Notes under the pieces: model-generated
Databases searched by the model: none
The model's input: the letters and a program-made list of their open reading frames with translations, nothing else
Told to the model about the DNA's origin: nothing
Shown: positions 26,312-53,141 of the stretch, one piece after another
Layout: every line of letters begins with the position of its first letter
Position numbering within the stretch: position 1 is the first letter of the stretch
Origin: a phage
Length of the DNA stretch: 64,000 bases
Sequence record: PZ445551.1
Strand: one strand, 5' to 3'
Translations under genes and position numbers: made by a program

Positions 26312-27472
26312 TTAGTAAGAACGACCACCAAACACATACTCTGTGTAGTTTTTACGTTCTTTGTTTTTAATAACAACTTCAATGTTGTTGCCTTTATCAT
26401 CGGTGAACACAAAGTGATAACCGTCACCACCCATTGTACGGATGTGTTTTTCATCATACGTCAGCAAGATACGGTCTACACCCCAGTAGTAGTCACCTTC
26501 TTCATCTTTGTCTTCTACTGTAACGACTCCTTCCATTTCAGGAAGATGCTCTTCTCCTGACTTATGATCTACAGCTACAACATAACGATTACCGCTAAAC
26601 AAACCTTGTGCTGTCATACCGTCAATATCGGTATCTGACGAAACATCTCCTGTACGATCTACACCGTTAACTTTCAGGAGTTTAACTTCTTTTGCAGCAT
26701 AGCGGTGTTCAGTGATACTGATACCCATTAATGCAAGTGCATCAGAGAATTTGTCATTAGGGTAACGGTTAAGTTCTTCTACTAATGACTGAACAATATC
26801 AAAGTTCAAGTCCACGGACAGATTATAAAGCGTTTCAAAATCTGGTAAAAAGGCTTTGTTCTCCAGATTTTTAGCCAGATAATCATCCATAGTAGCTTTA
26901 GGTAGTTTCTTATAGCTAAAACTGTAGAAAATACGGCTAGGACGATTACGCAAAAATTCTGATACATAACCATCATTTTTAGTCAATACAAACAGCTTGT
27001 CGTAGCCACCAACACCATCCAGCAGGGTAAGCAAACCATCTTGTGCATCTTTTTCAGCATACAGTTTATCAAATTCATCGATCATAATCATCACAGGTTG
27101 TGTGATTTTAGACATAAAATTGATAAAGCCTTCACCATTAAAAGCACTACCGATAGAAATAGTAGGAATACCCATTTCACGAAGAGCAGAAGACAGCATT
27201 TTAGCTTGCAAAGTTTTACCGCTACCTTTCGTACCCTCAAGGAGAACACCTGTGTTTTTACCTTTGCGGCTAAGGAACGTCTTGATAATACGTTCTGATT
27301 TATCATCAGTATCACCGTATGTTACTGAAGGGACTTCCATATCGTTTTTAGGATACAGGAAGAACTCACCACTTTGAGTAACACCTACACCAAAAGTTCC
27401 TGCTGGAATTTCTTCGATATCTGTACCAGACTTCTGACGCAGGAAGATTTGATTGCCGAATACTGTAAACAT
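26312..27472 (-). CDS. P-loop NTPase (AAA-like ATPase), paralog of 41452-42579
   Basis: Walker A GTKGSGKT, Walker B IMIDEFDK; long collinear similarity to the plus-strand paralog. Confidence 0.8.
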   Translation of the reverse strand: MFTVFGNQIFLRQKSGTDIEEIPAGTFGVGVTQSGEFFLYPKNDMEVPSVTYGDTDDKSERIIKTFLSRKGKNTGVLLEGTKGSGKTLQAKMLSSALREMGIPTISIGSAFNGEGFINFMSKITQPVMIMIDEFDKLYAEKDAQDGLLTLLDGVGGYDKLFVLTKNDGYVSEFLRNRPSRIFYSFSYKKLPKATMDDYLAKNLENKAFLPDFETLYNLSVDLNFDIVQSLVEELNRYPNDKFSDALALMGISITEHRYAAKEVKLLKVNGVDRTGDVSSDTDIDGMTAQGLFSGNRYVVAVDHKSGEEHLPEMEGVVTVEDKDEEGDYYWGVDRILLTYDEKHIRTMGGDGYHFVFTDDKGNNIEVVIKNKERKNYTEYVFGGRSY

Positions 27473-39990: not shown

Positions 39991-40542
39991 ATGCAAAACA
40001 CCGATCTGACTTGGATAGAAGCCAAAGAAGCAATGTTAAAAGGCAAACGCGTTAAACATAAATACTTTTGCGAAGGAGAATGGTTTGAAATGCGTAACCG
40101 ATCCCTTGTAGATGAAAAAGGGAATGACATGCAACAATGGTTCAAAAATGAAATTTGGCAGGGAACAGGTTGGTCTGTAGTTGAAGAGCAGCCTAGCTCA
40201 AGCGCACTGTTTAGCCCTATTATGTATCGCGTTATCGGTGCTTTAGTTGTTGATCACAGGATTGCAGTGGAAAAAGAATGCTGGGAAGAGGTATCTTTTT
40301 TCAACCTGGCTTCTTATGCAAAAAGCCATATGCACTTGTTTGAAGAAGGGGATGAATTTGTTCTTCGTATGCGCTATGGCAAAGAATTCAGATTATCACT
40401 TGATAATGATGTAGACACTGTTGTAAAATGGTTAGCAGAGCATTACGCTTACGATGCAATTTGTGGTCGCAGCTTCGGCAACGAACGCTGGGACATGATT
40501 TGTGAAAAATATGATTTTGAGCCGGAGTACGGAGTTTTATAA
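39991..40542 (+). CDS. Hypothetical protein
   Basis: Start at ATG 39991 with SD GAGAGGAG; longest ORF from 39931 lacks an RBS. Confidence 0.6.
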   Translation: MQNTDLTWIEAKEAMLKGKRVKHKYFCEGEWFEMRNRSLVDEKGNDMQQWFKNEIWQGTGWSVVEEQPSSSALFSPIMYRVIGALVVDHRIAVEKECWEEVSFFNLASYAKSHMHLFEEGDEFVLRMRYGKEFRLSLDNDVDTVVKWLAEHYAYDAICGRSFGNERWDMICEKYDFEPEYGVL

Positions 40543-40793
40543 TGTTAAGTATCAAACCTAAAATGATAACAGAAGACGAAGCAGACTTTATTTTCAAATG
40601 TGGACGTGTATGGAGAGAATTCACAAAAGGAAATGAAGTGGTGGTTGTTGTTGAACACAAGATATCTATTCAGGATCTGTTTGGACAATATGTTGATGTT
40701 ATTAAATTAGGTATTGACAAGGGTTTAGTTGAGGTGTTAACATTAGATCAAGTTGAAGCAGAGCACCTCAATAAAGTAGTGGTTGAATTTTAA
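40542..40793 (+). CDS. Hypothetical protein
   Basis: 83-aa ORF, translationally coupled to its neighbour. Confidence 0.55.
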   Translation: MLSIKPKMITEDEADFIFKCGRVWREFTKGNEVVVVVEHKISIQDLFGQYVDVIKLGIDKGLVEVLTLDQVEAEHLNKVVVEF

Positions 40794-40813
40794 AATACAG
40801 ACGGGAGAAAGGT

Positions 40814-40987
40814 ATGAGTTTCTTTGTTACAGTATTTATGGCTATCTGGATTGTAGTCTCACTCGTTCTTTTCCTGGTGGGTTGTCTGGAAGAGATTAAG
40901 AAAGCGGTTATTTGCGGTTTCTTTGGCTTTATTATCTCTCCTGCCTGGATGTGGTTCTTCATTATTATTGGTTTCCTTAAAAGGTAA
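40814..40987 (+). CDS. Small membrane protein (57 aa, below the ORF-track threshold)
   Basis: ATG 40814 after GGGAGAAAGG; two hydrophobic segments; hand-translated. Confidence 0.45.
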   Translation: MSFFVTVFMAIWIVVSLVLFLVGCLEEIKKAVICGFFGFIISPAWMWFFIIIGFLKR

Positions 40988-41001
40988 GTGAGGAATAAAG
41001 A

Positions 41002-41439
41002 ATGAGTAAAACAAACGCAATCGCAGATAAAGCAACTGATGTACTTCTGAACATGGTTAACGTCACTATTCAAACAATGAGTGATGTTGTAGAGTTTGGA
41101 AAACAACAAATTCCAGAAGTAATTCATCAATTATTAGTGTGGAAAGCAGTATCCGCAGGTTTATGGCAACTTTTTAGTATTTGCTTTATGTTTATTACTT
41201 TTATTGCTGTGCGGAACCTCGTAAAAGCAATTAAAGATAAAGAATGCCTGTGGTCACGAGATCGCTATGGTGAAGTATCTGCTTTACCTATTGTTGGCCT
41301 TGTTGTCTGTGCTTTCTTTTTCTTTTTAGGATTTGTTATTTTCTTTTCGAATTTTGATTGGCTAAAAATCATTATTGCACCAAAAGTGTATCTGATTGAA
41401 TTTGCTGCTGATTTAATTCGTTCATCTCAACAAAAATAA
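41002..41439 (+). CDS. Membrane protein
   Basis: 145 aa with several hydrophobic helices. Confidence 0.6.
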   Translation: MSKTNAIADKATDVLLNMVNVTIQTMSDVVEFGKQQIPEVIHQLLVWKAVSAGLWQLFSICFMFITFIAVRNLVKAIKDKECLWSRDRYGEVSALPIVGLVVCAFFFFLGFVIFFSNFDWLKIIIAPKVYLIEFAADLIRSSQQK

Positions 41440-41451: not shown

Positions 41452-42579
41452 ATGAAATACACGATTTATGGTGATATTGTAAGTGTAAATAAAGATATGG
41501 GCGTGGAATCTAACTATCTTCCACCAGGATTCTATACTGTTAGTCGTGATCCCCTTGGCAATTATTTTTTAAGCCGTGGTAATCTGACAGGTGTACCGGA
41601 TGTTTTGTATGGTGAAACAGAAAAACGAGCAAATCACGTTATCCGTACATTCCATCGCCGGAGTGCACAAGGTAAAAACACAGGCTTGCTTCTGACAGGA
41701 ACTAAGGGCAGTGGTAAAACTATGTTAGCCAAACTCATTAGTCGTGACCTTGTAGAAGAAGGTATTCCAACTATTATGGTTACTCAAGCCTATAGTGATG
41801 CTAATTTCATTGAACTTATTAGCAAGATCACCGACAAAGCAGTGATTATTTTTGACGAGTTTGATAAAGTATATGAGAAGAAACAAGATCAAGAAGCACT
41901 TCTCACTTTGTTAGATGGTACTGGCAGTGGTAATAAACTGTTTATTCTGACTAAAAACAGTGGTTTTATCTCTGAATTCTTTTTAAATCGTCCTAGTCGT
42001 GTGTTTTATAATTTTAATTATGATAAAATCTCACTAGAAACTATGATTGACTATTTAGATAAAAACCTGGATAACAAAGCACACTTTGATAATTTCCAAA
42101 GACTTTGGGATGTAAGTTTAGAGTTGTCCTTTGATGTGATCCAAGGTATAGTAGAAGAACTTAATTTCTACCCTGATTTATCCTTTAAAGAATGTATCTC
42201 TATGATGGGCGTTTCTTTAGGTGGTGGTAATAAATGGGATATCAGCAGTGTTGTTATTAATGGGAAACTTCAGAAAGTTAGCTGGGTATCTAGTTGGCAT
42301 AACTTTACACCTGCAATCTTTTTAGGTGGCTCGTGCACACTAGACGTGTACTTGTCATCTCCAAGTGATGCAGACTCTAAAGAAGCCCTTGCTAATAGCT
42401 CTTACGTGGTTTTTGATGATGAAGGAGATGCTCGAATTCCATTGAATGCGACAAAAATGAAAGCAGATCTTATTACAGGCGGTAAAATCGTTGTGTTTAG
42501 TGATGATCCAGAAGATTCTTTCCGTATTGTTCTGGAACCAACTATCACCAATGGTGCAACTTTGGCAAGTGTGTTTTAA
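41452..42579 (+). CDS. P-loop NTPase (AAA-like ATPase), paralog of 26312-27472
   Basis: Walker A GTKGSGKT, Walker B IIFDEFDK; collinear with the minus-strand paralog over about 250 residues. Confidence 0.8.
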   Translation: MKYTIYGDIVSVNKDMGVESNYLPPGFYTVSRDPLGNYFLSRGNLTGVPDVLYGETEKRANHVIRTFHRRSAQGKNTGLLLTGTKGSGKTMLAKLISRDLVEEGIPTIMVTQAYSDANFIELISKITDKAVIIFDEFDKVYEKKQDQEALLTLLDGTGSGNKLFILTKNSGFISEFFLNRPSRVFYNFNYDKISLETMIDYLDKNLDNKAHFDNFQRLWDVSLELSFDVIQGIVEELNFYPDLSFKECISMMGVSLGGGNKWDISSVVINGKLQKVSWVSSWHNFTPAIFLGGSCTLDVYLSSPSDADSKEALANSSYVVFDDEGDARIPLNATKMKADLITGGKIVVFSDDPEDSFRIVLEPTITNGATLASVF

Positions 42580-42593: not shown

Positions 42594-42620
42594 AAAAACC
42601 CGCTCCGGCGGGTTTTCTTG
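42594..42620 (+). terminator. Rho-independent terminator (AACCCGC-tccg-GCGGGTT + TTCTTG)
   Basis: Stem-loop and T-tract immediately after the ATPase stop. Confidence 0.65.
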
Positions 42621-42653
42621 TATTGATACCAGATTTAATAAGAGGAGTAATAG

Positions 42654-43826
42654 ATGACAGCACCAAAATCATGGGAACAATATAAAGAAGAATTAACACC
42701 CCTTGCTAAAAATCACAATATTCAAATCCTGGGTTATGTTGGTGAATGGAAAGGGAACAAGACTAAACTTAAGCTATCTTGCCCTAAACATGGAGAGTGG
42801 AACACCACGAACATTAATGATTTTAAGAAGGGACGTGGTTGTCCTATCTGTTCTGGTAAGAAGCCGTTAACATGGGAAACAGAATTGCCGATCTTGGAAG
42901 AGATAGCACAGAAGAGGGGGTATCAGGTGTTAGGGTACGTGGGAGAATGGAAAGGGAATAAAACAAAACTTGATTTGTTGTGTCATTGTGGTAATAAATG
43001 GGATACTACAAGTATTAACAATTTTAAACGTGGTAGCGGTTGTCCACAATGTAAGAGGGAGAGACAAACAATGTCCGACGATCAACATATTGCAGATTTC
43101 TTTTCTACAGGGGAATTTAAGGAAGGCACTATCTTCACCAATACAGGGAAACGTAACAAGCGTGATGCAGTATGGATGGTTGAGTGTCCTGTTTGCTCCC
43201 ATGATGAATATGTTCAAGCAGGTGTTTGTGATGGTAAATTTTACTCTGCAGGACATAACCTTAAACAAGGGTATATTCCGTGTCGTTGTGGGAACTATCA
43301 GTATACAGAAGACCAGATCACCTATAGGGTAAAAAAGGAAGTAGAAGGGAAAGGGTATGTCTGGGTAGATTGGATTACCAAACCCTCTTCTATAGGTAAG
43401 TTTAAATATCTTTGTCTTGTGCATGGTGAGCAGATAGGGAGTGCTCGTAATTTATTAAGCCTCGGTCAAGGTTGTCCACAGTGTGCTGGTCATAATCAAC
43501 AGCAATTATATATTAATATTGTTAAAGATAATGATATTATAGTTGCCCTTAAGTTTGGTATATCTAAAGATAGCGATAGACGATTAAACGGTCAAAATAG
43601 CCGTAATCTGTTTTTTATGGAGCGTATTTGTTTATATGATTTTAGCACAGTGAAACAATGTAGGGCTGCTGAAAGAGCTATAAAGAAAAAATTAAAAACT
43701 GGTATTTTAACGGCAAGAGAGTTGAAAGATGGTTATACAGAAACAGTAAGTGTTTCTGATTTGGAAAATCTTCAAAAAATTATTACACAATATGGTGGCA
43801 AATTAGTATACAGTAAGGAGATGTAA
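42654..43826 (+). CDS. Protein with three zinc-ribbon-type repeats (GCPxC) and a C-terminal T5orf172/GIY-YIG-like domain
   Basis: Tandem repeats LGYVGEWKGNKTKL...GCPICSG / ...GCPQCK / ...GCPQCAG; C-terminus IVALKFGISKDSDRRL resembles T5orf172. Confidence 0.55.
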   Translation: MTAPKSWEQYKEELTPLAKNHNIQILGYVGEWKGNKTKLKLSCPKHGEWNTTNINDFKKGRGCPICSGKKPLTWETELPILEEIAQKRGYQVLGYVGEWKGNKTKLDLLCHCGNKWDTTSINNFKRGSGCPQCKRERQTMSDDQHIADFFSTGEFKEGTIFTNTGKRNKRDAVWMVECPVCSHDEYVQAGVCDGKFYSAGHNLKQGYIPCRCGNYQYTEDQITYRVKKEVEGKGYVWVDWITKPSSIGKFKYLCLVHGEQIGSARNLLSLGQGCPQCAGHNQQQLYINIVKDNDIIVALKFGISKDSDRRLNGQNSRNLFFMERICLYDFSTVKQCRAAERAIKKKLKTGILTARELKDGYTETVSVSDLENLQKIITQYGGKLVYSKEM

Positions 43827-44378
43827 ATGCGGATTACTGATAAGTATGTGTTCTTCTTCTCGGCAAAAGATGAATTTAGCAACTGGTATCTATCATCTTT
43901 TATTGAACCTTTAGCTCCCAAGTATAATAATTCTATTACAAGTTCTGTTGAATTTACTTGTGTGGAACAATATATGATGTGGAGAAAAGCATGTTTGTTT
44001 TATGATTACAACATTGCATCTTCTATTTTAACCGGAGATCTAAGATATACAGGAGAAAAAGAACAAGCATATTATAAGCGACTAGGCAGATTAGTTAAAG
44101 ATTATGATGAAGATACCTGGACTTCTTTACGGGAGAAGATTGTCAAACGTGGTTTGTATCTTAAATACACACAAAATGAAGATCTCAAAAATAAACTTAT
44201 AGCCTACGCAGATAAGGAGTTCGTAGAGGCAAGCCCTTATGATTCTATTTATGGTATCAAAATGGGGATGTGGGATCGGGACGTGGAAAATAAGGATTGT
44301 TGGAAAGGACAAAATCTTTTAGGAAAATGGCATACAGACCTTGCTGTTTATCTAAAAGCACAATCTGATATTTCCTGA
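43827..44378 (+). CDS. NADAR-domain protein (YbiA-like; candidate DNA ADP-ribosyl-guanine hydrolase)
   Basis: Motifs FFFSAKDEFSNW, CVEQYMMWRKA, W-KGQNLLGKW agree with the NADAR/YbiA pattern; 183 aa. Confidence 0.55.
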   Translation: MRITDKYVFFFSAKDEFSNWYLSSFIEPLAPKYNNSITSSVEFTCVEQYMMWRKACLFYDYNIASSILTGDLRYTGEKEQAYYKRLGRLVKDYDEDTWTSLREKIVKRGLYLKYTQNEDLKNKLIAYADKEFVEASPYDSIYGIKMGMWDRDVENKDCWKGQNLLGKWHTDLAVYLKAQSDIS

Positions 44379-44596
44379 TATTTTGAAAATTTTTATTTTT
44401 ATAAAAAGGGGTGTGGGTTTCATGTACGGAAATTCACCCTCTGCACAGTATATCCAGAGTAAGTAGTATTCTATACCCTGTTAATAAAGTATTTAATTTG
44501 TTTGTTGGACTATGGTATCTGATCTTTAAAAGGCATACTATCTCTTAACTACTACTTATAACAGAACAGTAAAATCATTTTTATAAAAAGTACAAA

Positions 44597-44800
44597 ATTA
44601 TTTAAAGTTTTTACAGATTTTTGGGTACAAATTTTGAAAATGAAAAGTTCAAGTTTGGTCAAAATTATTTAAAGTTTTTGTACGTATTTCTATTCAGATT
44701 TTGAAAATGAAAACTTCAATTTTTTAAAAATTCCCCAGTTTATTTAAAGTTTTTTTGCCTTTTTCCGTAGAAAAATCAAAAATGAAAAGTTCAATTTCGT
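44597..44800. repeat. Three tandem direct repeats (about 65-75 bp units: TATTTAAAGTTTTT ... GAAAATGAAAAGTTCAA)
   Basis: Repeated unit read directly in an AT-rich non-coding stretch. Confidence 0.6.
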
Positions 44801-44817
44801 GTTTTTATAGGTGTGTT

Positions 44818-44928
44818 AATGAGAATCATTTTCGTTTGTAAATGAGAATCATTATCATTTAACTATGTAAGTGATAATCATTCTCAGTAAGAGAATGAGA
44901 ATCCTTAGCAAATGAGAATTTTCTCATT
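44818..44928. promoter_or_regulatory. Cluster of five AATGAGAATCATT / GATAATCATTCTC iteron-like sites (Fur-box-like), including the perfect 18-bp palindrome AATGAGAATTTTCTCATT
   Basis: Repeated half-sites resembling the GATAAT hexamer of the Fur box; non-coding. Confidence 0.45.
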
Positions 44929-45044
44929 TAGAGAATAACGCGCAGGGGTGGTGTTTGTCTCGCGCTCCCGTGTCCCCTCGCCATACAATAAGAATAGCAT
45001 AACCAACAACAAAAGCAAGCGATTATTTTTATCTTTACATTTCT

Positions 45045-45458
45045 TTACAAATTTATTTTAGACGAGCTACCGGCGATCAACCTTCCAACCAGTGCCCCCT
45101 GGTATGTTAGCCCCGCCTTTACGCCGTGGGGGTGGCGCTTCCTCTTCTGTATGTAAAACAGTATAAGCCCGATCCCTGGGCTTGTCAAGATTATTTTTTG
45201 TTTTCTTGCCAGGATAGGACACCTAACCAAAAATACATGTCGCCCCGCGCCCCCTGGTGGGATCTTGCTTTCCCCGCCGCCACTGCAAGCCCATAGATAA
45301 CCATTTGCGAACGTATCAAAATGATCTATTTCTTCCACCTTATGATCGCCCAGGTTGAGAACGGTTTCAACCTTTAAGCCCGTTGCGCTTGCTACCTGGT
45401 GCACCGTGCCGCCTTGCCAGCCTAATGAGTGCATGAGGTGTGAAGTAGTATTTGTCAT
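45045..45458 (-). CDS. Hypothetical ORF inside a GC-rich island (coding status uncertain)
   Basis: 137-aa ORF on the opposite strand from flanking genes; region is visibly GC-richer than its surroundings; no clear SD. Confidence 0.25.
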   Translation of the reverse strand: MTNTTSHLMHSLGWQGGTVHQVASATGLKVETVLNLGDHKVEEIDHFDTFANGYLWACSGGGESKIPPGGAGRHVFLVRCPILARKQKIILTSPGIGLILFYIQKRKRHPHGVKAGLTYQGALVGRLIAGSSSKINL

Positions 45459-45829
45459 GGTATCGCCCTTTCTTTGATGTGTGCCCTGGTTGGCGCGGTA
45501 GAAAGATAATAGCCCTTTCCTTTATAGATAGCAAGCAAAAAAGAAATGAAAAAAAGATTAAAAAAGGGGTTGACGTTCCTCACCTGGTAGCGTATTATTC
45601 ATCTTGTCGAGGGGGGCGAGGCACAACGACAATAAACAAAAGGAGGGCGCAATGTAGGACGGGCAAAGGTGAGGATCTCCACAATCCACCGTCACAATAA
45701 CATTACTTATAAAAGGTTGATAACGATGATCAAGAAAGAAAACAGCTTGACGGTTGGAACGATTAACGCTATCATTTTCGCCGTTCCATTTTGGGTTGTA
45801 GTAGCGGTTATTATCTTTTAAAAATATTC

Positions 45830-45887
45830 TTGACAACGTTTTTTAATCTGATAAGATGTATCACATAGGGCGGCAATAGTGCCGCTC
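45830..45887 (+). promoter_or_regulatory. sigma70-like promoter (TTGACA -35) + 5' GC stem-loop cassette
   Basis: TTGACA at 45830; stem-loop GGGCGGC-aatagt-GCCGCTC; ATG at 45910. Confidence 0.55.
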
Positions 45888-45909
45888 ATAACAGAAGAGA
45901 GAAATAATC

Positions 45910-46182
45910 ATGGCATCATATAGCGCATCAATGATCGTAACGGGCATCACTGGTAAACCTATGCGCGGTGGCGGATCTTTCGCTAACATCAATATTGATG
46001 GGCGTTTATCCCTGGACGCAGCGATCACAGTGGCACGGGAAACGTTTAAAAAAGAATGTAATTTCAATAAACAAGATTATCTCGGTTTCGCTATTGAAAA
46101 AACCGCGCGCTTTGTTGATTATAAAAGCCCGAAAATGGTTGATACTACACTAAAAGCGCAAGATGTAGCATTTTTGCTTTAA
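45910..46182 (+). CDS. Hypothetical early protein
   Basis: 90-aa ORF behind a promoter/stem-loop cassette. Confidence 0.6.
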   Translation: MASYSASMIVTGITGKPMRGGGSFANINIDGRLSLDAAITVARETFKKECNFNKQDYLGFAIEKTARFVDYKSPKMVDTTLKAQDVAFLL

Positions 46183-46185
46183 GGC

Positions 46186-46246
46186 TTGACACTGAAAAAT
46201 AATTTGGTAATATATACTACATAGGGCGGGGAAATGGTTTCCCGCC
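46186..46246 (+). promoter_or_regulatory. sigma70-like promoter + 5' GC stem-loop cassette
   Basis: TTGACA at 46186; stem-loop GGGCGGGG-aaatggttt-CCCGCC; ATG at 46269. Confidence 0.55.
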
Positions 46247-46268
46247 AAATCAAAGAAAGGGTAACACA

Positions 46269-46631
46269 ATGAGCAAGCAAATCAATACTATCATGTTAAA
46301 CCTGGTATCTTTCCGCGATGACGTGAAAAATCTTTCGCGTGATGCAGTGGATGCACGGATCGAAAGCTATCGCTCACAGATCGCAACATTACCGCTAAAA
46401 CGTGATCAACATGCCGCTAATATGATGCTTAATGCTATGCTTAAAAAGATGATTCAATGTGATCTTACCCTGGCTTATGAATATGCTGGCGATCTCTTTG
46501 TAACATACAATAAGCCCGTTCCAGGTATGAGCACAACCGAAGAATTGCATGCCTTAAATCTGCGACAAGATGCATGGGATAATATGCGCCGCGTTATGGT
46601 ATGGGTAGAAAGCGGCAAAATTTACGCATAA
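46269..46631 (+). CDS. Hypothetical early protein
   Basis: 120-aa ORF behind a cassette. Confidence 0.6.
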   Translation: MSKQINTIMLNLVSFRDDVKNLSRDAVDARIESYRSQIATLPLKRDQHAANMMLNAMLKKMIQCDLTLAYEYAGDLFVTYNKPVPGMSTTEELHALNLRQDAWDNMRRVMVWVESGKIYA

Positions 46632-46670
46632 AGGCTTTACATTACACGAAAACCTGATAAGCTATCTTAA

Positions 46671-46690
46671 AGCGGGAATAGTTCCCGCTT
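46671..46690 (+). promoter_or_regulatory. 5' GC stem-loop (GCGGGAA-tag-TTCCCGC); upstream promoter weak or unclear
   Basis: Same class of stem-loop as the other cassettes, about 18 nt before ATG 46708. Confidence 0.4.
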
Positions 46691-46707
46691 TCATAGGATA
46701 AAACTTT

Positions 46708-46854
46708 ATGAAACAATATGTAATGAGTATTCACACCAAAAACGGCGCTACTGTTACGACTCCGGCACGGTTTGCACTTGTAAACCGTTGCAAGAGACTA
46801 AAACGAGAGTTAAAAAATAACCGTGCAACGGGCTTTAAACGCTGGGGAGGATAA
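46708..46854 (+). CDS. Small basic protein (48 aa, below the ORF-track threshold)
   Basis: ATG 46708 directly after the stem-loop; Lys/Arg-rich; hand-translated. Confidence 0.45.
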   Translation: MKQYVMSIHTKNGATVTTPARFALVNRCKRLKRELKNNRATGFKRWGG

Positions 46855-46856
46855 TC

Positions 46857-47117
46857 TTGTTTTTTCTAAAAGTTTTTGATAATGTGATCGCTTTTGAACA
46901 TGCTACAACGTTCGACCTAGCGAGATACGCTATCAGGTTTAAAGATAATGTTTATCCCCGTGCTGGAGGCGGTTACACTATTTTTAATCATCGTAACGCT
47001 CAATTAACGGATATAACTAATCCAGATCCTGGAGTGTATCGCATAGGCTGGCTACCGTCAAAAGACGCGGCAAGCATGTTTAAGGTGTGTAAACTACTAA
47101 CAGAAGAGGCAAATTAG
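46857..47117 (+). CDS. Hypothetical early protein (TTG start)
   Basis: 86-aa ORF; SD GGGGAGG 5 nt upstream of TTG. Confidence 0.5.
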   Translation: MFFLKVFDNVIAFEHATTFDLARYAIRFKDNVYPRAGGGYTIFNHRNAQLTDITNPDPGVYRIGWLPSKDAASMFKVCKLLTEEAN

Positions 47118-47118
47118 C

Positions 47119-47664
47119 ATGGGGCGTGAGTATGTGATCCAGTCCTGGGTAAAGCATGACGCTAATGATCCGCGCATAATACCAGATGACATGATCGATC
47201 ACATGGTAGGGTATAGCGGGGAGCAGATAGGAAATCGAGCGGCAAAGAGCAACGGCAACACAAAGGCGCGATCCGTTCGCCCTGGTTGGCTGGCAAATGG
47301 TAACGCTGACATTGCAAGCGCCGCAGATCCAAGCGATGACGCTAAAAATAATCCCTTATACAGCATTGATCCGGCTTTTAAGGTGTTAGAAGAGTATCCC
47401 GCTAAATTAGCCGCACTAGATAAGGCATACGAAGAAAAGCGCATGGCATGGACGGTATACAACACCGCTAAAATGGTGCTAGATGCAAAATTGATTAAAG
47501 CCCAGGAGAAGATCAATAAACTTGTTGCAGTAGCGCAAGAGGAAGACCAGGAGGAAGAGGAAGAAATCATGCCTACCCTGGAAGAGGAAGAGATCCAGCC
47601 ATACATGCCGACGGAAGAGGAAAAAAGACAAGCCCTAAAAAATTATGAAAATTGCATTGTGTAA
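47119..47664 (+). CDS. Hypothetical early protein with strongly acidic C-terminus
   Basis: 181-aa ORF; C-terminal QEEDQEEEEEIMPTLEEEE. Confidence 0.6.
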   Translation: MGREYVIQSWVKHDANDPRIIPDDMIDHMVGYSGEQIGNRAAKSNGNTKARSVRPGWLANGNADIASAADPSDDAKNNPLYSIDPAFKVLEEYPAKLAALDKAYEEKRMAWTVYNTAKMVLDAKLIKAQEKINKLVAVAQEEDQEEEEEIMPTLEEEEIQPYMPTEEEKRQALKNYENCIV

Positions 47665-47667
47665 GGC

Positions 47668-47723
47668 TTGACATATGCAAACAAGCCCCGTAATATGTAC
47701 CACATAAAGCGGGGCAACGCCCC
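47668..47723 (+). promoter_or_regulatory. sigma70-like promoter (TTGACA...TAATAT) + GC stem-loop GGGGC-aac-GCCCC
   Basis: Boxes and stem-loop read directly. Confidence 0.5.
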
Positions 47724-47745
47724 ATAAGGTGAAATAAAAAATCAC

Positions 47746-47773
47746 TTGACACCTGAAATCAGTAAGCTATAAT
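47746..47773 (+). promoter_or_regulatory. Consensus sigma70 promoter (TTGACA-N16-TATAAT)
   Basis: Exact -35 and -10 hexamers with a 16-nt spacer, 37 nt upstream of ATG 47811. Confidence 0.65.
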
Positions 47774-47810
47774 GCTTATATAGATTGAAACATTACTAAG
47801 GAATAAAAGC

Positions 47811-47990
47811 ATGGCTATTATTGCAAAAACTGAGATCGTAGGTTTAGATTCTATCATCCTGGCATATGAGGAAGCTATAGAAATGTATGTAGTGACCTAT
47901 GGTGATTATGTGCGTGAATACGAATACATTGATCTTGCTTTCGAATGTTACATTCGCCAGGTCAATAAAGCCTATGATGATTATCGTTAA
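47811..47990 (+). CDS. Small hypothetical protein (59 aa, below the ORF-track threshold)
   Basis: ATG 47811 after SD AAGGAATAA; hand-translated to TAA at 47988-47990. Confidence 0.5.
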   Translation: MAIIAKTEIVGLDSIILAYEEAIEMYVVTYGDYVREYEYIDLAFECYIRQVNKAYDDYR

Positions 47991-48085
47991 AAGTTTTAGT
48001 CTTGTGCTATTGACAACGAACGATAGTACAAGCATAATAACTTTTATCGGGAATACTCCTAACTAATCAAAAGAGATTAAAGACT

Positions 48086-48451
48086 ATGGCTAAAAATATC
48101 AATGTTTCTGCTTATGCTACCCTGGCTAACACTGCTAAAATTGAACTATCCAGCATTGAAGCGGTACATATTAGCGCCCGTCGCTGGTTTCAAAAGTCTT
48201 ATGGTAATACTTATTTCTCTTTGATGGTTGACGTTGAGATCGGCGGTAAACTGATTGAAGTCGTTAACGTTCCGTTTCACTATGGCTACGGGGATCATTT
48301 TGATACCGTTGCCCTAGAAGAGTTTAGCAAGGTTGTCAACCTGGAAGGTAAAGAGTTTTCAAATTATGCCTACCTTTCCCGTTTTTGCCGTGATAATGGG
48401 ATCGCTGTATACAGTCATGCAAGCGATGTTAAACGTAAAAAAGATTTATAA
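48086..48451 (+). CDS. Hypothetical early protein
   Basis: 121-aa ORF. Confidence 0.6.
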   Translation: MAKNINVSAYATLANTAKIELSSIEAVHISARRWFQKSYGNTYFSLMVDVEIGGKLIEVVNVPFHYGYGDHFDTVALEEFSKVVNLEGKEFSNYAYLSRFCRDNGIAVYSHASDVKRKKDL

Positions 48452-48457
48452 AAAGCA

Positions 48458-48516
48458 TTGACAGCACGAATAAAAAGCATATAATACTTATATCGAGAGC
48501 GGGAATAGTTCCCGCC
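48458..48516 (+). promoter_or_regulatory. Consensus sigma70 promoter (TTGACA-N16-TATAAT) + 5' stem-loop GCGGGAA-tag-TTCCCGC
   Basis: Boxes and stem-loop read directly; ATG at 48541. Confidence 0.6.
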
Positions 48517-48540
48517 TCACTGAAAAAAGAGATTAACATC

Positions 48541-48780
48541 ATGGCTAAATCTAAAATGTTCTTAGGTCACAAAAACAAAACTCATTGGAATGTAAGCCTT
48601 TGGATCAACAACGATGAAGGTTTTTATAATCTTGCGCGTGAATTTATCGCAGCTAACACCAATAAGAATGACGCAGCGCGTGATATGATGTTATTTCTTG
48701 AAAGTATGGATCAAGATAAAACGCCAGACGGTTACAAGTTCAGTAAAACTGCGATCCGCGCCGCGATGGTTGGAATGTAA
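48541..48780 (+). CDS. Hypothetical early protein
   Basis: 79-aa ORF. Confidence 0.55.
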   Translation: MAKSKMFLGHKNKTHWNVSLWINNDEGFYNLAREFIAANTNKNDAARDMMLFLESMDQDKTPDGYKFSKTAIRAAMVGM

Positions 48781-48885
48781 AGGAGACATAAAAATGAAAC
48801 ATCGTTCGACCTATCTCACAAAACGTTTTAGCTTAGATCATAAATTGGGCTATTACGGAAGAAATAGAAAATAATTTGACACTGT

Positions 48886-48935
48886 TTAAAATTCTGGTAT
48901 AGTTTATCACATAGGGCGGGAAATGGTTTCCCGCC
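48886..48935 (+). promoter_or_regulatory. sigma70-like promoter + 5' GC stem-loop cassette
   Basis: TTGACA at 48886; -10 TATAGT; stem-loop GGGCGGG-aaatggttt-CCCGCC; ATG at 48958. Confidence 0.55.
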
Positions 48936-48957
48936 AAATGAAAGAAAGGTTATCATT

Positions 48958-49185
48958 ATGGCTATCGTTATTGTTCGCGTATCCGGCACGGTTGGAATCT
49001 CCCAGGTAGTAGCAGTTATCACCGAGAAGAAAGGGGATGATCTTCACTCTTCCTTGAATAGCTGGGCGGTCGCTAACTTCGGGCAATGGTCGAGCGTTGA
49101 GTACATCGAATCCTACCAGGTGCCAACGATTAGCCTAACCGATCTAAATGTTGATCGCTTGTTGTGCCTGGATCAATTAAACTAA
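48958..49185 (+). CDS. Hypothetical early protein
   Basis: 75-aa ORF. Confidence 0.55.
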   Translation: MAIVIVRVSGTVGISQVVAVITEKKGDDLHSSLNSWAVANFGQWSSVEYIESYQVPTISLTDLNVDRLLCLDQLN

Positions 49186-49193
49186 AAATAATA

Positions 49194-49252
49194 TTGACAA
49201 GATAACTAAAATCAGTAAAATGTAATGCATAGGGCGGCAATAGTGCCGCTCC
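49194..49252 (+). promoter_or_regulatory. sigma70-like promoter + 5' GC stem-loop cassette
   Basis: TTGACA at 49194; -10 TAAAAT; stem-loop GGGCGGC-aatagt-GCCGCTC. Confidence 0.55.
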
Positions 49253-49272
49253 TAGTGAGAGAGATTATCAAG

Positions 49273-49488
49273 ATGGCTAATATCCGCACACTGTTAAAAA
49301 ATGCAAGTCAAGTTTTATTTTCAGATGACGAGTATTTCAACAAAGACATTACAGGCGTGAAAAATTTAAAAGACGTGAAGGATGTTATCGGTATTCGTGG
49401 ATCTTTACGTAAAGGTGACATATACGGTAACAAGGTGCAATATAAACTGTCAAAAGATTATGATTTTACTTTGACATTTATTTCATAA
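49273..49488 (+). CDS. Hypothetical early protein
   Basis: Start at ATG 49273 (MANIRTL) downstream of the stem-loop; 71 aa. Confidence 0.55.
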   Translation: MANIRTLLKNASQVLFSDDEYFNKDITGVKNLKDVKDVIGIRGSLRKGDIYGNKVQYKLSKDYDFTLTFIS

Positions 49489-49494
49489 AACCGC

Positions 49495-49555
49495 TTGCAA
49501 TACTACAAAAATAAAGTAAACTGTATTCATCAAGGCGGTGGAATAGCCCACCGCC
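49495..49555 (+). promoter_or_regulatory. Promoter-like boxes (TTGCAA...TAAACT) + stem-loop GGCGGTGG-aatagc-CCACCGCC
   Basis: Perfect 8-bp stem; promoter boxes are weaker than in the other cassettes. Confidence 0.45.
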
Positions 49556-49579
49556 TAACAAAGAGAAGAGGAAAACATC

Positions 49580-49750
49580 ATGATCACTTTTGCTACCCGT
49601 GAAGCCGCTCGCAACGTTGCACGTAAAGTTAACGCCGCCAACCTGGGCGCTACGCTTAAAGCCCCGGTAAAAGATGAATCAGGGAAATGGATCTTCCCTG
49701 GTCTGCGTCACGCTGATAAGCTGGGAACATTAACGTTAAAAAATAAATAA
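49580..49750 (+). CDS. Small hypothetical protein (56 aa, below the ORF-track threshold)
   Basis: ATG 49580 after SD GAGAAGAGGAAAA; hand-translated. Confidence 0.45.
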   Translation: MITFATREAARNVARKVNAANLGATLKAPVKDESGKWIFPGLRHADKLGTLTLKNK

Positions 49751-49757
49751 TATCCGC

Positions 49758-49816
49758 TTGACAGTAGCATGATTTATAAGTAAAGTAACAACAACGGCGG
49801 GAAATGGTTTCCCGCC
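49758..49816 (+). promoter_or_regulatory. sigma70-like promoter + 5' GC stem-loop cassette
   Basis: TTGACA at 49758; stem-loop GGCGGG-aaatggttt-CCCGCC; ATG at 49837. Confidence 0.55.
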
Positions 49817-49836
49817 ATCAATAAAGAGATAAGATT

Positions 49837-50196
49837 ATGAAATCAGTAAAAGCAATTAAAACTTACATTTTGTCGGCTATTTCTTTTGATGGTACTACAA
49901 CCGAAAAAGAAAAAATCACCGAACTGATGCGCCGTTTTAACTCTGAATACTGGTATCCCGATAATCAAAAACGTTACAATTATAACGTGATTAAGGCGAT
50001 AGCCTCATGGTTACAAGGTTTACCGTCAGAAATCAATATTGCTTTTGATTATAACGAGATCGATCACTTGTTAATTGAATGGAAGTACATAAAAGAAACA
50101 AGCAAAGAAACAACCGTTACCCGTGAGCGGGAAAATTATTGGTTATATATTGCAAGCATGATCGTAATCCTGGCAAAACAGCATAACGTGGCGTAA
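49837..50196 (+). CDS. Hypothetical early protein
   Basis: 119-aa ORF. Confidence 0.6.
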   Translation: MKSVKAIKTYILSAISFDGTTTEKEKITELMRRFNSEYWYPDNQKRYNYNVIKAIASWLQGLPSEINIAFDYNEIDHLLIEWKYIKETSKETTVTRERENYWLYIASMIVILAKQHNVA

Positions 50197-50211
50197 TTAA
50201 GAGGAAGAAAC

Positions 50212-50349
50212 ATGAACGCATCACAGCAGATCGAAAAATTCAACCGCAGCAAGGCGCGTAAAGATTGGAACGAAGAGATCACCAAAAAAGGCGACAAGCG
50301 GAACAAAACAAAGAGAGATCGCAGCACAAAAAGATACTGGAACGAATAA
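50212..50349 (+). CDS. Small basic protein (45 aa, below the ORF-track threshold)
   Basis: ATG 50212 after SD AAGAGGAAG; Lys/Arg-rich; followed by a terminator. Confidence 0.45.
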   Translation: MNASQQIEKFNRSKARKDWNEEITKKGDKRNKTKRDRSTKRYWNE

Positions 50350-50351
50350 CA

Positions 50352-50378
50352 AAAAGGGCGCAATAAGCGCCCTTTTAG
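50352..50378 (+). terminator. Rho-independent terminator (GGGCGC-aataa-GCGCCC + TTTT)
   Basis: Perfect stem followed by a T run. Confidence 0.6.
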
Positions 50379-50466
50379 CTTATATAGAGGCTTGTTACCC
50401 ATAGGCAATGGTAACGCCAGGATAAGCCTATAAACCACGTTAGACAGCTTTACAGGAGCTTTAAAA

Positions 50467-50649
50467 ATGAAATTAGACGAAATAAGCAAGGCACTAGCCC
50501 AGGGGCAAAGGTTATGCGCCCGATATCGTGATCAATATGGCTTCATAACTAGCGGCGTGATCCTGGGGATTGAAGGCAATAAGATTTTTATTGACACGTT
50601 GAAAAACGTTGTATATAGTGACAATATAATCTCAATAAAACATATATGA
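50467..50649 (+). CDS. Hypothetical small protein
   Basis: 60-aa ORF; SD AGGAG upstream. Confidence 0.5.
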   Translation: MKLDEISKALAQGQRLCARYRDQYGFITSGVILGIEGNKIFIDTLKNVVYSDNIISIKHI

Positions 50650-50657
50650 GGCAAGAA

Positions 50658-51059
50658 ATGAAAAAATTATTGATCGCTGGTTTAATCTCTTTTGGCATGG
50701 TTGGAACATCTAGCGCGGCGATATCCTCCACAGTAGCAGAATTAAGCGCCGTTGATGCAATGGAAAACGTCATGCTTATTAATAACGCGATCCCCGATGA
50801 AATCATGGAGGATTCACACATGATCGCTTATGGTGCTGTTACACAACTAACGGCAAAAATAGATAAATCTATTGTTAACGGCTTAAATGAAGATGTGCCA
50901 TGTGAAATTATTACCAGTGTGCTGACTACTCAAAATTTTACGCCGTGGTTAAAAAGTATTCAAAAAGTACACAGTACAGCCGCAGATCGTAGCAATGAAA
51001 AACTAGTGTCAGCACTTGCAACGTATACCCTAGCAAAATGCACCGAGATAAAAGATTGA
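50658..51059 (+). CDS. Secreted / periplasmic hypothetical protein
   Basis: Signal peptide MKKLLIAGLISFGMVGTSSA; start at ATG 50658. Confidence 0.55.
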   Translation: MKKLLIAGLISFGMVGTSSAAISSTVAELSAVDAMENVMLINNAIPDEIMEDSHMIAYGAVTQLTAKIDKSIVNGLNEDVPCEIITSVLTTQNFTPWLKSIQKVHSTAADRSNEKLVSALATYTLAKCTEIKD

Positions 51060-51084
51060 CAACATAGAAAGCACGTTATAAGAT
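51056..51084 (+). promoter_or_regulatory. sigma70-like promoter (TTGACA-N17-TAAGAT), no stem-loop
   Basis: Hexamers read directly upstream of ATG 51107. Confidence 0.45.
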
Positions 51085-51106
51085 ACACACAACAAAGGAG
51101 AACTAC

Positions 51107-51409
51107 ATGAACGGCATAGCTAAAACGTTTTTTCTTTTTTCTGGTGTAAATGATCCATCAATAAAAGTCGATAGTGTAAAAGAAAACAATACTATCACCG
51201 CTAAATTGTTTCAAGATGAAACAAATAACGTGCTAATCATTAATCTTAAAGAAGTAACTAAAGGTTATTATACTATTGCTTACCATGCGATTTATCATGC
51301 TGGTACTAGTGAGGAAGTGCAAACAAGCAACAACGAAAGCGCGGCGCTACCTGGTGATCTGGTGCTGGGCGTTATCAGTTTAATTGTCAATGATTTTTTT
51401 AAGGAGTAA
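51107..51409 (+). CDS. Hypothetical protein
   Basis: 100-aa ORF; SD AAAGGAG. Confidence 0.55.
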   Translation: MNGIAKTFFLFSGVNDPSIKVDSVKENNTITAKLFQDETNNVLIINLKEVTKGYYTIAYHAIYHAGTSEEVQTSNNESAALPGDLVLGVISLIVNDFFKE

Positions 51410-51738
51410 AACCATGCCCTATTTACATTTATTTTTCGGTATCTTATTGACAGGATCTTTTTTCTTCTGTATGCTTGTTTCTATTGTAAACCACGTTTTA
51501 AGACATTAAGGAAACAGCATGAAAATTATTCCCGTACAATATAGCGTAATAAATCCAGCATACGAGGAAGGAAGGAAAACAAGCATGGCTTTATGTTGTA
51601 TTGCTACTATAGCCATGTTGTTATATATTGTGTTTTAATAGGTTTTATAGTTGTACGCTTTAAGGGCTTGACAATTTTTTGTTATGCTTTAAACTATATC
51701 TTGAAAACGGCAAAGGCCGCAAACAAAAGGGTAAAATT

Positions 51739-52062
51739 ATGAAATCTGTGATCGGTGTTTATTTGGATAACTCTGATTTTTTCTATCATCGCGCTCGTTT
51801 CCTTGATGCGATTGAAATGATAGAATCAGGCTTTAAAGAGTATCGCCTTGCACATGATGACCTGGAAGCATTACAGGGCAATAGTGTTTTTACATTGCAA
51901 GCTAAAGCACTATGCAAAAGCCGGATCGACATTGCGAGCAAAAAGATAGAACGCGGCATGTCCTGGTTGCGCACCGCAGAAATCAACATGGGGCAATGGT
52001 ACGGCGAAAACTTAGAAAATAAACATACTTTTGTCAATGTAGAAAATATTGAAGATTATTGA
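51739..52062 (+). CDS. Hypothetical protein
   Basis: Start at ATG 51739 (MKSVIGV); TTGACA at 51668 upstream; 107 aa. Confidence 0.55.
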   Translation: MKSVIGVYLDNSDFFYHRARFLDAIEMIESGFKEYRLAHDDLEALQGNSVFTLQAKALCKSRIDIASKKIERGMSWLRTAEINMGQWYGENLENKHTFVNVENIEDY

Positions 52063-52125
52063 TTGACAGCACACCTAACGGGTAGTATATTGTATCTCAT
52101 AGAGCGGGGAAATGGTTTCCCCGCC
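52063..52125 (+). promoter_or_regulatory. sigma70-like promoter + 5' GC stem-loop cassette
   Basis: TTGACA at 52063; -10 TATATT; stem-loop GAGCGGGG-aaatggttt-CCCCGCC. Confidence 0.55.
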
Positions 52126-52144
52126 TTAAAAGAAGAGATAAGCT

Positions 52145-52429
52145 ATGAAGATCACAAAAGCACTTTCCAACTATGCAGCACGTCGCGGATTATGTTTAAC
52201 CGTTGAAAATTTAGGGAAAGAAGATTTTTTGTGCTTTTGGGAGCTTGAGAATGATAATGAGTGGATCTTCTCTTATTCTATCTGCGAAGATCAAAACGGT
52301 TGTTTATTAACCTGGCGCGGTAATATCTATTTACCGGAAGAAATCAAAGAAGAATTACCAGGCACGATCATGACTGAGAAACAGCTTAAGGAAGTGATCA
52401 ATTTTGTAGGGCAAAACATTAAAAAATAA
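52145..52429 (+). CDS. Hypothetical early protein
   Basis: 94-aa ORF. Confidence 0.55.
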   Translation: MKITKALSNYAARRGLCLTVENLGKEDFLCFWELENDNEWIFSYSICEDQNGCLLTWRGNIYLPEEIKEELPGTIMTEKQLKEVINFVGQNIKK

Positions 52430-52430
52430 T

Positions 52431-52489: not shown

Positions 52490-52510
52490 ATAACAGAAGA
52501 GAAACAAATC

Positions 52511-52681: not shown

Positions 52682-52688
52682 TCAACAA

Positions 52689-53140: not shown

Positions 53141-53141
53141 T

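What the first reader, a model, noticed from the sequence alone, without database searches (positions are those of the whole stretch)
43827..44378. NADAR-domain protein at the end of the 40-44 kb operon: likely reverses guanine ADP-ribosylation (anti-DarT2-type)
The motif pattern matches NADAR/YbiA. NADAR enzymes are reported to remove ADP-ribose from guanine in DNA and to act as antitoxins to DarT-like ADP-ribosyltransferases. The gene closes an operon that also holds a paralogous ATPase and a zinc-ribbon/T5orf172 protein, so the whole 39.9-44.4 kb block may be an anti-defence island.
Basis: partly seen in the sequence, partly recalled or inferred. Interest (0 to 1): 0.7.

Follow-up and report, generated by a model that had tools for sequence, protein, structure and literature searches.

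The report
Known phage anti-DarT1 NADAR enzyme (AdfN)
This gene encodes a phage enzyme that strips ADP-ribose off guanine in DNA to defeat the bacterial DarTG1 defence; a version 99% identical from sister phages was already tested and named AdfN-Bas60 in 2025, so the finding is correct in substance but not new, and it acts against DarT1, not DarT2.

Summary
The ORF at 43827..44378 (+, 183 aa) is real and is a clear NADAR-domain protein: Pfam PF08719 E=2.5e-36, the fold matches PDB 8BAU and YbiA, and all ADP-ribose-contacting and catalytic residues are conserved.

The window is Escherichia phage VivaForever (Justusliebigvirus). The protein is 181/183 and 182/183 identical to the NADAR proteins of BASEL phages Bas60 and Bas62. 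Johannesman et al. (Nat Commun 2025) named that protein AdfN^Bas60. They showed that it neutralises DarT1 toxicity and restores plating of RB69, T5 and Bas25 on DarTG1 hosts. It has no effect against DarTG2.

The label "anti-DarT2-type" is wrong: DarT1 modifies guanine and pairs with a NADAR; DarT2 modifies thymidine and pairs with a macrodomain.

On the neighbours:
- The "paralogous ATPase" is confirmed (47% identity to a second copy at 26.3 kb).
- The zinc-ribbon/T5orf172 protein is a typical CapR-repeat T5orf172 homing endonuclease.
- A strong terminator hairpin at 42595-42616 splits the proposed operon.
- Nothing supports an "anti-defence island".

Verdict: already known; low interest.

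The parts
43827..44378 (+). NADAR-domain gene, 183 aa. It is the orthologue of AdfN^Bas60 (bas60_0111 / bas62_0106 / Phi92_gp224) and a predicted guanine-ADP-ribose DNA glycohydrolase. Key residues are E47, K54, K84, G87, R88, Y93, W98, R102, E134 and D139.
   Evidence: experimental data on the 99%-identical protein in PMC11825919.
43815..43820 (+). Shine-Dalgarno sequence AAGGAG, 6 nt upstream of the NADAR ATG. It lies inside the end of the endonuclease gene, whose TAA stop at 43824-43826 abuts the ATG, which implies translational coupling.
   Evidence: Read directly from the sequence.
42654..43826 (+). T5orf172 (GIY-YIG-related) homing-endonuclease-type gene with four CapR zinc-finger DNA-binding repeats. 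It is the immediate upstream neighbour and is co-transcribed with the NADAR gene.
   Evidence: Pfam CapR PF21817 E=3.9e-43 (4 stretches), T5orf172 PF10544 (20.6 bits against a cut-off of 20), DUF4379, DUF723; phrog_681 'endonuclease' 1.3e-86. The Bas60 copy carries one extra repeat. The class is described in PMC10448857.
42595..42616 (+). Intrinsic-terminator-like hairpin AAAACCCGCTCCGGCGGGTTTT followed by a U-rich tract. It separates the ATPase unit from the endonuclease-NADAR pair.
   Evidence: 9 pairs, 5 GC; -16.9 kcal/mol, z=-4.41, 0 of 200 shuffles fold as well; annotated as a terminator in phage Paula.
41452..42579 (+). AAA+ ATPase (phrog_2376) of unknown role. It is a paralogue of the ATPase at 26312..27472(-). 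It is context only and not shown to work with the NADAR.
39991..41439 (+). Four small genes of unknown function (39991..40542, 40542..40793, 40814..40987, 41002..41439; the last two are membrane-like). They open the rightward gene block after the divergent junction at about 39.9 kb. Context only.

Best explanation
The gene encodes a stand-alone NADAR ADP-ribosylglycohydrolase, the VivaForever orthologue of AdfN^Bas60. When the phage infects a host that carries the DarTG1 toxin-antitoxin defence, DarT1 transfers ADP-ribose from NAD+ onto the N2 of guanines in single-stranded phage DNA and blocks replication. The phage NADAR binds the ADP-ribose moiety. K54 and R88 hold the diphosphate, Y93 stacks on the adenine, and E47 and E134 grip the distal ribose. 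It hydrolyses the ribose-guanine N-glycosidic bond, restores unmodified DNA and allows replication to continue. It acts as an orphan enzymatic antitoxin and needs no other phage factor. It does not act on thymidine-ADP-ribose, so it gives no protection against DarTG2. Shown here: domain, fold, residue conservation, and orthology with synteny. Shown in the literature for the 99%-identical protein: DarT1 neutralisation, rescue of three heterologous phages on a DarTG1 host, and no rescue on a DarTG2 host. Inferred: that the gene is needed by this phage itself on DarTG1 hosts, the residue-level mechanism (transferred from 8BAU and from E. coli C7 NADAR mutagenesis), and the timing of expression.
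For: NADAR profile hits are well above the curated cut-offs. The AF2 model (pLDDT 97.4) matches only NADAR structures. The window maps to phage VivaForever at 100% identity. The protein is 181/183 identical to Bas60 and 182/183 to Bas62, in the same syntenic position. PMC11825919 reports that AdfN^Bas60 neutralises DarT1 in uninfected E. coli, restores RB69, T5 and Bas25 to full titre on DarTG1 hosts, and has no effect on DarTG2 hosts. Residues equivalent to the P. nicotianae NADAR ADPr contacts (E43, K50, K75, G78, R79, Y84, W89, R93, E125, D130) are E47, K54, K84, G87, R88, Y93, W98, R102, E134 and D139 (alignment; residue roles). Of these, E47, K54, K84, G87, W98, E134 and D139 are invariant in 50 homologues and R88 is conserved in at least 90%. 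The gene is present in all 56 close relatives that carry the block, which is consistent with selection.
Against: No deletion of the gene in Bas60-62 or VivaForever is reported in the main text I could read, so the native requirement is inferred from ectopic expression. The paper's supplement (accession table) was not available, so the equation 'AdfN^Bas60 = bas60_0111' rests on two things: it is the gene annotated as YbiA-like in Bas60 and Bas62, and the protein search found a single match per record in nearly all phage records. I did not search the full Bas60 genome for a second, divergent NADAR. NCBIfam's equivalog-domain model would name the protein a riboflavin-intermediate N-glycosidase. 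Other NADARs also act on RNA guanosine-ADPr and cytidine-ADPr, so DarT1 may not be the only natural target.
Confidence: 0.88

Rival explanations
1. It is a YbiA-type housekeeping N-glycosidase that destroys reactive riboflavin-pathway intermediates (or similar small-molecule ribosides), as the BASEL annotation 'putative YbiA-like N-glycosidase' and NCBIfam TIGR02464 imply.
For: TIGR02464 scores 109.8 bits against a cut-off of 73.7. The protein has the YbiA-type glutamate (E134) rather than the Asp of DarT1-linked NADARs. The Bas60 and Bas62 records carry that name.
Against: Identity to E. coli YbiA is only 27% over 82 aa. The published phylogeny places AdfN^Bas60 with non-YbiA, non-DarT-linked NADARs, and the protein does neutralise DarT1 in cells, whereas E. 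coli YbiA does not. There are no riboflavin genes nearby. A lytic phage has no evident need for riboflavin damage control.
Confidence: 0.04
2. It is a broad ADP-ribose eraser whose main natural targets are other ADP-ribosyltransferase defences or toxins (guanosine-ADPr in RNA, cytidine-ADPr, pierisin/ScARP-like or still unknown ARTs). On this view DarT1 is only one of its targets.
For: NADARs reverse guanosine-ADPr on RNA (PMC11833690) and cytidine-ADPr (PMC12945103). An enzymatic eraser is indifferent to which toxin wrote the mark (discussion). The family occurs in 717 phage records across very different hosts, more widely than one would expect for one E. coli system.
Against: Nothing has been tested for this protein beyond DarT1 and DarT2. 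This reading adds to the best explanation rather than competing with it.
Confidence: 0.25
3. It serves NAD+/ADP-ribose metabolism, for example recycling ADP-ribose for phage NAD+ reconstitution, rather than DNA repair.
For: The nearest relatives outside the subfamily (40-46% identity) lie on 310-455 kb phage-like contigs next to an NMNAT-like nucleotidyltransferase and near a NAMPT gene.
Against: No NAMPT or NMNAT homologue is found in this window (tblastn) or in the annotated parts of the genome I inspected. The orthologue's DarT1 phenotype is direct.
Confidence: 0.04
4. One reading: it counters DarT2-type systems.
For: None beyond the general NADAR/DarT association.
Against: DarT2 modifies thymidine and is reversed by macrodomains. 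All tested NADARs fail on thymidine-ADPr. AdfN^Bas60 gave no rescue of T5 on DarTG2. T4 uses a separate macrodomain protein (AdfM) against DarTG2.
Confidence: 0.02

Closest known systems
AdfN^Bas60 (anti-DarT factor NADAR of BASEL phages Bas60/61/62; Johannesman et al., Nat Commun 2025, PMC11825919)
   Same: The sequence is 99% identical (181/183 and 182/183). The length is the same (183 aa), as is the position after the ATPase and the T5orf172 endonuclease, and the phage genus (Justusliebigvirus).
   Different: One or two conservative substitutions (N62S and A178T against Bas60; D96T against Bas62). In VivaForever the gene is annotated only as 'hypothetical protein'. The upstream endonuclease has four CapR repeats here against five in Bas60.
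DarG1 / BC4488-type DarT1-associated NADAR antitoxin (E. coli C7, G. lovleyi; Schuller et al., Mol Cell 2023)
   Same: It has the same superfamily and the same reaction (hydrolysis of guanine-N2-ADP-ribose). It keeps the Glu and Lys equivalents (E88 and K95 correspond to E47 and K54) and the Lys equivalent to K115 (K84). It neutralises DarT1 in cells.
   Different: No adjacent DarT1 gene. No N-terminal extension. The third catalytic position is Glu (E134, YbiA-type) rather than Asp (D171). It belongs to a different clade in the published tree.
AdfN^T4 (T4 gp30.3) and T4-like phage NADARs
   Same: It is a phage-encoded orphan NADAR that counters DarTG1 by enzymatic de-ADP-ribosylation and is inactive against DarTG2.
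   Different: No BLASTP-detectable similarity (E=2.2). T4-type proteins have His where this protein has Glu. AdfN^T4 cannot neutralise DarT1 outside a T-even infection, whereas AdfN^Bas60 works on its own. The acquisition was independent.
E. coli YbiA / P. nicotianae NADAR (YbiA subfamily; PDB 2B3W, 8BAU)
   Same: Same fold (TM 0.69-0.77), same catalytic Glu/Lys/Glu triad and ADPr-binding residues, and a hit above the TIGR02464 cut-off.
   Different: Identity is 22-28%. YbiA does not rescue DarT1 toxicity in cells. This protein carries two lineage-specific insertions (about residues 27-40 and 70-83).

Membership tests
NADAR superfamily (Pfam PF08719 / DUF1768) | Profile HMM match above the curated gathering score | tested here: met
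   125.8 bits against a cut-off of 35.1, E=2.5e-36, profile positions 9-154 of 163.
NADAR superfamily (Pfam PF08719 / DUF1768) | NADAR fold as in solved structures | tested here: met
   The AF2 model has pLDDT 97.4. Foldseek hits are 8BAU (E=1.6e-9, TM 0.77) and 2B3W (E=2.8e-6); nothing else reaches E<1.
NADAR superfamily (Pfam PF08719 / DUF1768) | Conserved catalytic Glu and Lys (Pn E43/K50 = Ec C7 E88/K95) and an acidic residue at the Pn E125 position | tested here: met
   E47, K54 and E134 align to these residues and are invariant in 50 homologues. Residue roles come from PMC11543638.
NADAR superfamily (Pfam PF08719 / DUF1768) | Hydrolysis of guanine-linked ADP-ribose | not testable with these tools
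   Reported for the 99%-identical AdfN^Bas60 through DarT1 neutralisation and phage rescue, and stated as DNA ADP-ribosylglycohydrolase activity.
AdfN^Bas60 orthologous group (Stephanstirmvirinae anti-DarT1 NADAR) | Near-identity and synteny with the characterised Bas60/Bas62 gene | tested here: met
   181/183 and 182/183 identical, with the same gene order ATPase-endonuclease-NADAR.
AdfN^Bas60 orthologous group (Stephanstirmvirinae anti-DarT1 NADAR) | Counters DarTG1 but not DarTG2 in vivo | not testable with these tools
   Published for the orthologue by ectopic expression. No native knockout was found in the text.
DarG1 (DarT1-associated BC4488-type NADAR antitoxin) | Encoded next to a DarT1 ADP-ribosyltransferase gene | tested here: not met
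   The upstream gene is a T5orf172 endonuclease, and downstream lies 1.4 kb with no convincing + strand gene. No ART domain occurs in the six + strand proteins of the block that were scanned.
DarG1 (DarT1-associated BC4488-type NADAR antitoxin) | Catalytic Asp (Ec C7 D171) in place of the YbiA-type Glu, and an N-terminal extension | tested here: not met
   The position is Glu (E134). The NADAR domain starts at about residue 8-13 of a 183-aa protein. Features are as defined.
YbiA-type riboflavin-intermediate N-glycosidase (TIGR02464) | Match to the equivalog-domain model above its cut-off and the conserved Glu | tested here: met
   109.8 bits against 73.7; E134 is present.
YbiA-type riboflavin-intermediate N-glycosidase (TIGR02464) | Housekeeping context (RibA/RibD fusion or the LexA-controlled ybiA-dinG operon) and failure to neutralise DarT1 | tested here: not met
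   The protein is stand-alone in a lytic phage. The orthologue neutralises DarT1 whereas YbiA does not. The published tree places it outside the YbiA-like group.
T4-type AdfN (gp30.3) | Sequence relatedness to gp30.3 and His at the Glu position | tested here: not met
   BLASTP E=2.2. This protein has Glu at the position (E134), where T4-type NADARs are reported to have His; in the alignment gp30.3 shows KH there.
Anti-DarT2 factors (DarG2-like macrodomain, e.g. T4 AdfM) | Macrodomain fold; reversal of thymidine-ADPr | tested here: not met
   Only the NADAR domain is found. NADARs are inactive on thymidine-ADPr, and AdfN^Bas60 does not rescue on DarTG2.

The most novel reading that the evidence does not exclude
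The tightly coupled T5orf172 homing endonuclease and NADAR gene (stop and start codons abutting, their own unit behind a terminator) could form a mobile 'HEG island'. The endonuclease would then spread or amplify the anti-DarT1 gene among co-infecting Stephanstirmvirinae. Separately, the NADAR could have a wider substrate range (RNA guanosine-ADPr, cytidine-ADPr) that covers ART-based defences not yet described. Neither idea is excluded by my data, but the parallel divergence of the endonuclease (52% identity) and the NADAR (57% identity) between genera argues for long co-residence rather than recent mobility.
Probability: 0.12. Interest if true: 0.45.

Novelty: already known. Interest (0 to 1): 0.12.

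Why it matters
The main practical value is annotation. In the VivaForever record, and in most of the 56 close relatives, this gene is listed as a 'hypothetical protein' or misnamed as a riboflavin N-glycosidase. It can be renamed AdfN (anti-DarT1 NADAR). This helps predict the host range of these therapeutic-type coliphages on DarTG1-carrying E. coli. It opens no new question. The mechanism, the specificity and the independent acquisition of NADARs by phages were published in 2023-2025.

Tried and rejected
- Anti-defence island: Pfam, PHROG, NCBIfam and PADLOC scans of the neighbouring genes gave only 'unknown', a generic AAA+ ATPase, and a homing-endonuclease architecture. I rejected the idea as unsupported.
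- Link to NAD+ salvage, suggested by jumbo-phage relatives: tblastn with their NAMPT and NMNAT-like proteins found nothing in the window.
- Second NADAR in the window: none.
- Structured RNA or tRNA in the gene-poor 1.4 kb downstream: Rfam at E<=0.1 gave no hit and ARAGORN found none.
- Intrinsic terminator after the NADAR gene: the hairpin at about 44407-44442 has no U-tract and only z=-1.9, so this is not established.
- Promoter for the endonuclease-NADAR pair: the consensus scan did not exceed shuffles (24 found against 19.7 expected) and inspection of 42617-42653 found none. Expression may depend on read-through or on non-sigma-70 phage promoters.
- Accession table for AdfN^Bas60: the supplement is not held.
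- The Retron-Eco1 paper on a non-enzymatic phage NADAR (reference 37 of PMC11825919) is not held, so that possibility could not be assessed.
- Recent mobility of the endonuclease: rejected, because it is present at the same place in Phapecoctavirus with divergence similar to that of the NADAR.

Full report
**Observation.** An AAGGAG ribosome-binding site lies 6 nt upstream. The ATG directly follows the TAA stop of the preceding gene, so the two genes are translationally coupled.

The protein matches Pfam NADAR (PF08719) at E=2.5e-36, 125.8 bits against a gathering score of 35.1, over almost the whole profile. It also matches phrog_1017, NCBIfam TIGR02464 above its cut-off, and the solved NADAR of Phytophthora nicotianae, 8BAU (E=9.5e-13). 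An AlphaFold2 model built on a 50-sequence alignment has mean pLDDT 97.4. In the PDB it matches only 8BAU and E. coli YbiA.

**Identity of the window and the gene.** The 4.8 kb block around the gene is 100% identical to Escherichia phage VivaForever (PP925843.1). It is 95-99% identical to more than 50 Justusliebigvirus genomes (Stephanstirmvirinae), including BASEL phages Bas60 PaulScherrer and Bas62 JohannJBalmer. The protein is 181/183 identical to bas60_0111 and 182/183 to bas62_0106, in the same gene order.

Johannesman et al. (Nat Commun 2025, PMC11825919) found this NADAR in Bas60, Bas61 and Bas62 and named it AdfN^Bas60. They showed the following:
- It neutralises DarT1 toxicity in uninfected E. 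coli.
- It restores RB69, T5 and Bas25 to full titre on a DarTG1 host.
- It gives no rescue on a DarTG2 host.

The central claim of the finding is thus correct, but it is already published for an essentially identical protein.

**Mechanism.** Schuller et al. (Mol Cell 2023, PMC11543638) defined the ADP-ribose contacts in 8BAU and the catalytic residues by mutagenesis of the E. coli C7 NADAR. In the HMMER alignment to 8BAU (chain numbering is offset by +2) these map as follows:

| P. nicotianae NADAR (8BAU) | This protein |
|---|---|
| E43 | E47 |
| K50 | K54 |
| K75 | K84 |
| G78 | G87 |
| R79 | R88 |
| Y84 | Y93 |
| W89 | W98 |
| R93 | R102 |
| E125 | E134 |
| D130 | D139 |

E47, K54, K84, G87, W98, E134 and D139 are invariant across 50 homologues, and R88 is conserved in at least 90%. 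The third catalytic position is the YbiA-type Glu. It is not the Asp of DarT1-linked antitoxins, nor the His of T4-type phage NADARs.

The most likely mechanism is therefore enzymatic removal of ADP-ribose from guanine N2 in phage ssDNA that DarT1 has modified, acting as an orphan antitoxin. The native requirement in this phage is inferred, because I found no report of a knockout in Bas60-62.

**The DarT1/DarT2 error.** The literature is unambiguous. DarT1 modifies guanine and is paired with a NADAR. DarT2 modifies thymidine and is paired with the DarG macrodomain. NADARs are inactive on thymidine-ADPr. AdfN^Bas60 fails against DarTG2. T4 uses a separate macrodomain protein, AdfM, for DarTG2.

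**Neighbourhood.** The rightward block starts at a divergent junction near 39.9 kb. It contains:
- four small proteins of unknown function;
- an AAA+ ATPase (41452..42579, phrog_2376);
- a 390-aa protein (42654..43826);
- the NADAR gene.

The ATPase does have a paralogue in the window, at 26312..27472 on the minus strand, with 47% identity over 254 aa.

The 390-aa protein has four CapR zinc-finger repeats plus a T5orf172 domain and matches phrog_681 'endonuclease'. This is the architecture of the T5orf172 homing endonucleases described by Barth et al. (PMC10448857), including variation in repeat number: Bas60 has one extra repeat. It is a selfish-element type gene, not a recognised anti-defence gene.

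A strong hairpin followed by a U-rich tract lies at 42595-42616, between the ATPase and the endonuclease (-16.9 kcal/mol, z=-4.4). It is annotated as a terminator in phage Paula. The '40-44 kb operon' is therefore probably two units, and the NADAR travels with the endonuclease.

No neighbour matches any defence or anti-defence family. The ATPase-endonuclease-NADAR order is kept in Phapecoctavirus, with 52% and 57% identity for the last two genes. In Klebsiella Mydovirus and in jumbo-phage-like contigs the NADAR sits in quite different contexts. The association is lineage history, not evidence of a functional island.

**Distribution.** Relatives of this NADAR occur in 717 phage records, including Staphylococcus, Listeria, Enterococcus, Bacillus, Klebsiella and Cronobacter myoviruses. 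All 56 close relatives that carry the block carry the gene. Similarity to T4 gp30.3 is undetectable by BLASTP, and identity to YbiA is 27% over 82 aa. This agrees with the published view that phages acquired NADARs several times independently.

**Rivals.**
- The YbiA-type N-glycosidase reading rests on a curated NCBIfam hit and on the BASEL annotation. It is contradicted by the orthologue's DarT1 phenotype, which YbiA lacks.
- A role in NAD+ salvage is suggested only by distant relatives. It has no support in this window.
- A wider substrate range, covering RNA guanosine or cytidine, is plausible as an addition to the main role but is untested.

**Verdict.** The feature is real and the family assignment is correct. 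The function is already known from a 99%-identical protein. The DarT2 label is wrong and the 'anti-defence island' is unsupported. Novelty: already known. Interest: low.

Noticed in passing
window 44380-45830: About 1.4 kb directly downstream of the NADAR gene has no convincing + strand gene. It holds three ~70-nt AT-rich direct repeats (44577-44797, 22-25% GC), GAGAAT-type repeats (44821-44919), and then a 50-52% GC segment. That segment contains a minus-strand ORF (45192..45458, phrog_19316, unknown function). No Rfam or tRNA hit. The stretch is annotated only as 'repeat_region' in phage inny. It may be an origin or a regulatory region.
   Followed up: partly
window 45830-54844 (+), and 23166-23209 (-): A family of at least 10 promoter-like elements has a shared downstream box: TTGACA-N17-TAnnnT-N~7-CATAGGGCGG. 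One precedes each small early-type gene to the right of the NADAR block. A fixed-spacing version of the pattern gave 4 matches against 0.24 expected. The NADAR block itself does not carry this motif.
   Followed up: partly
window 42595-42616: A symmetric hairpin AAAACCCGCTCCGGCGGGTTTT (A-run before it, T-run after it) could terminate transcription in both directions. It splits the 40-44 kb rightward block into two units.
   Followed up: yes
window 26312-27472 (-) and 41452-42579 (+): Two paralogous AAA+ ATPases (phrog_2376) share 47% identity over the N-terminal 254 aa and have unrelated C-terminal thirds. Their function is unknown; some records annotate them as 'FtsH-like protease'.
   Followed up: partly
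window 42654-43826 vs L002:4255-5658: The T5orf172 homing-endonuclease-type gene varies in its number of CapR zinc-finger repeats between sister phages (390 aa here, 467 aa in Bas60). This fits the repeat-recombination pattern described for this endonuclease class.
   Followed up: partly
L007:5026-6477; L009:6001-11833: The closest NADAR relatives outside the Stephanstirmvirinae (40-46% identity) lie on 310-455 kb contigs that look like jumbo phages. They sit next to an NMNAT-like nucleotidyltransferase, a NAMPT gene, GIY-YIG genes and an anti-Pycsar Apyc1-like gene. This suggests a link between NADAR and NAD+ salvage in those phages that is absent here.
   Followed up: partly
window 43827-44378 (record PP925843.1 99823-100374): In the deposited VivaForever record, and in most relatives, this experimentally characterised anti-DarT1 gene is annotated as 'hypothetical protein'. 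In Bas60 and Bas62 it is annotated as 'putative YbiA-like N-glycosidase'. The annotations are out of date.
   Followed up: yes
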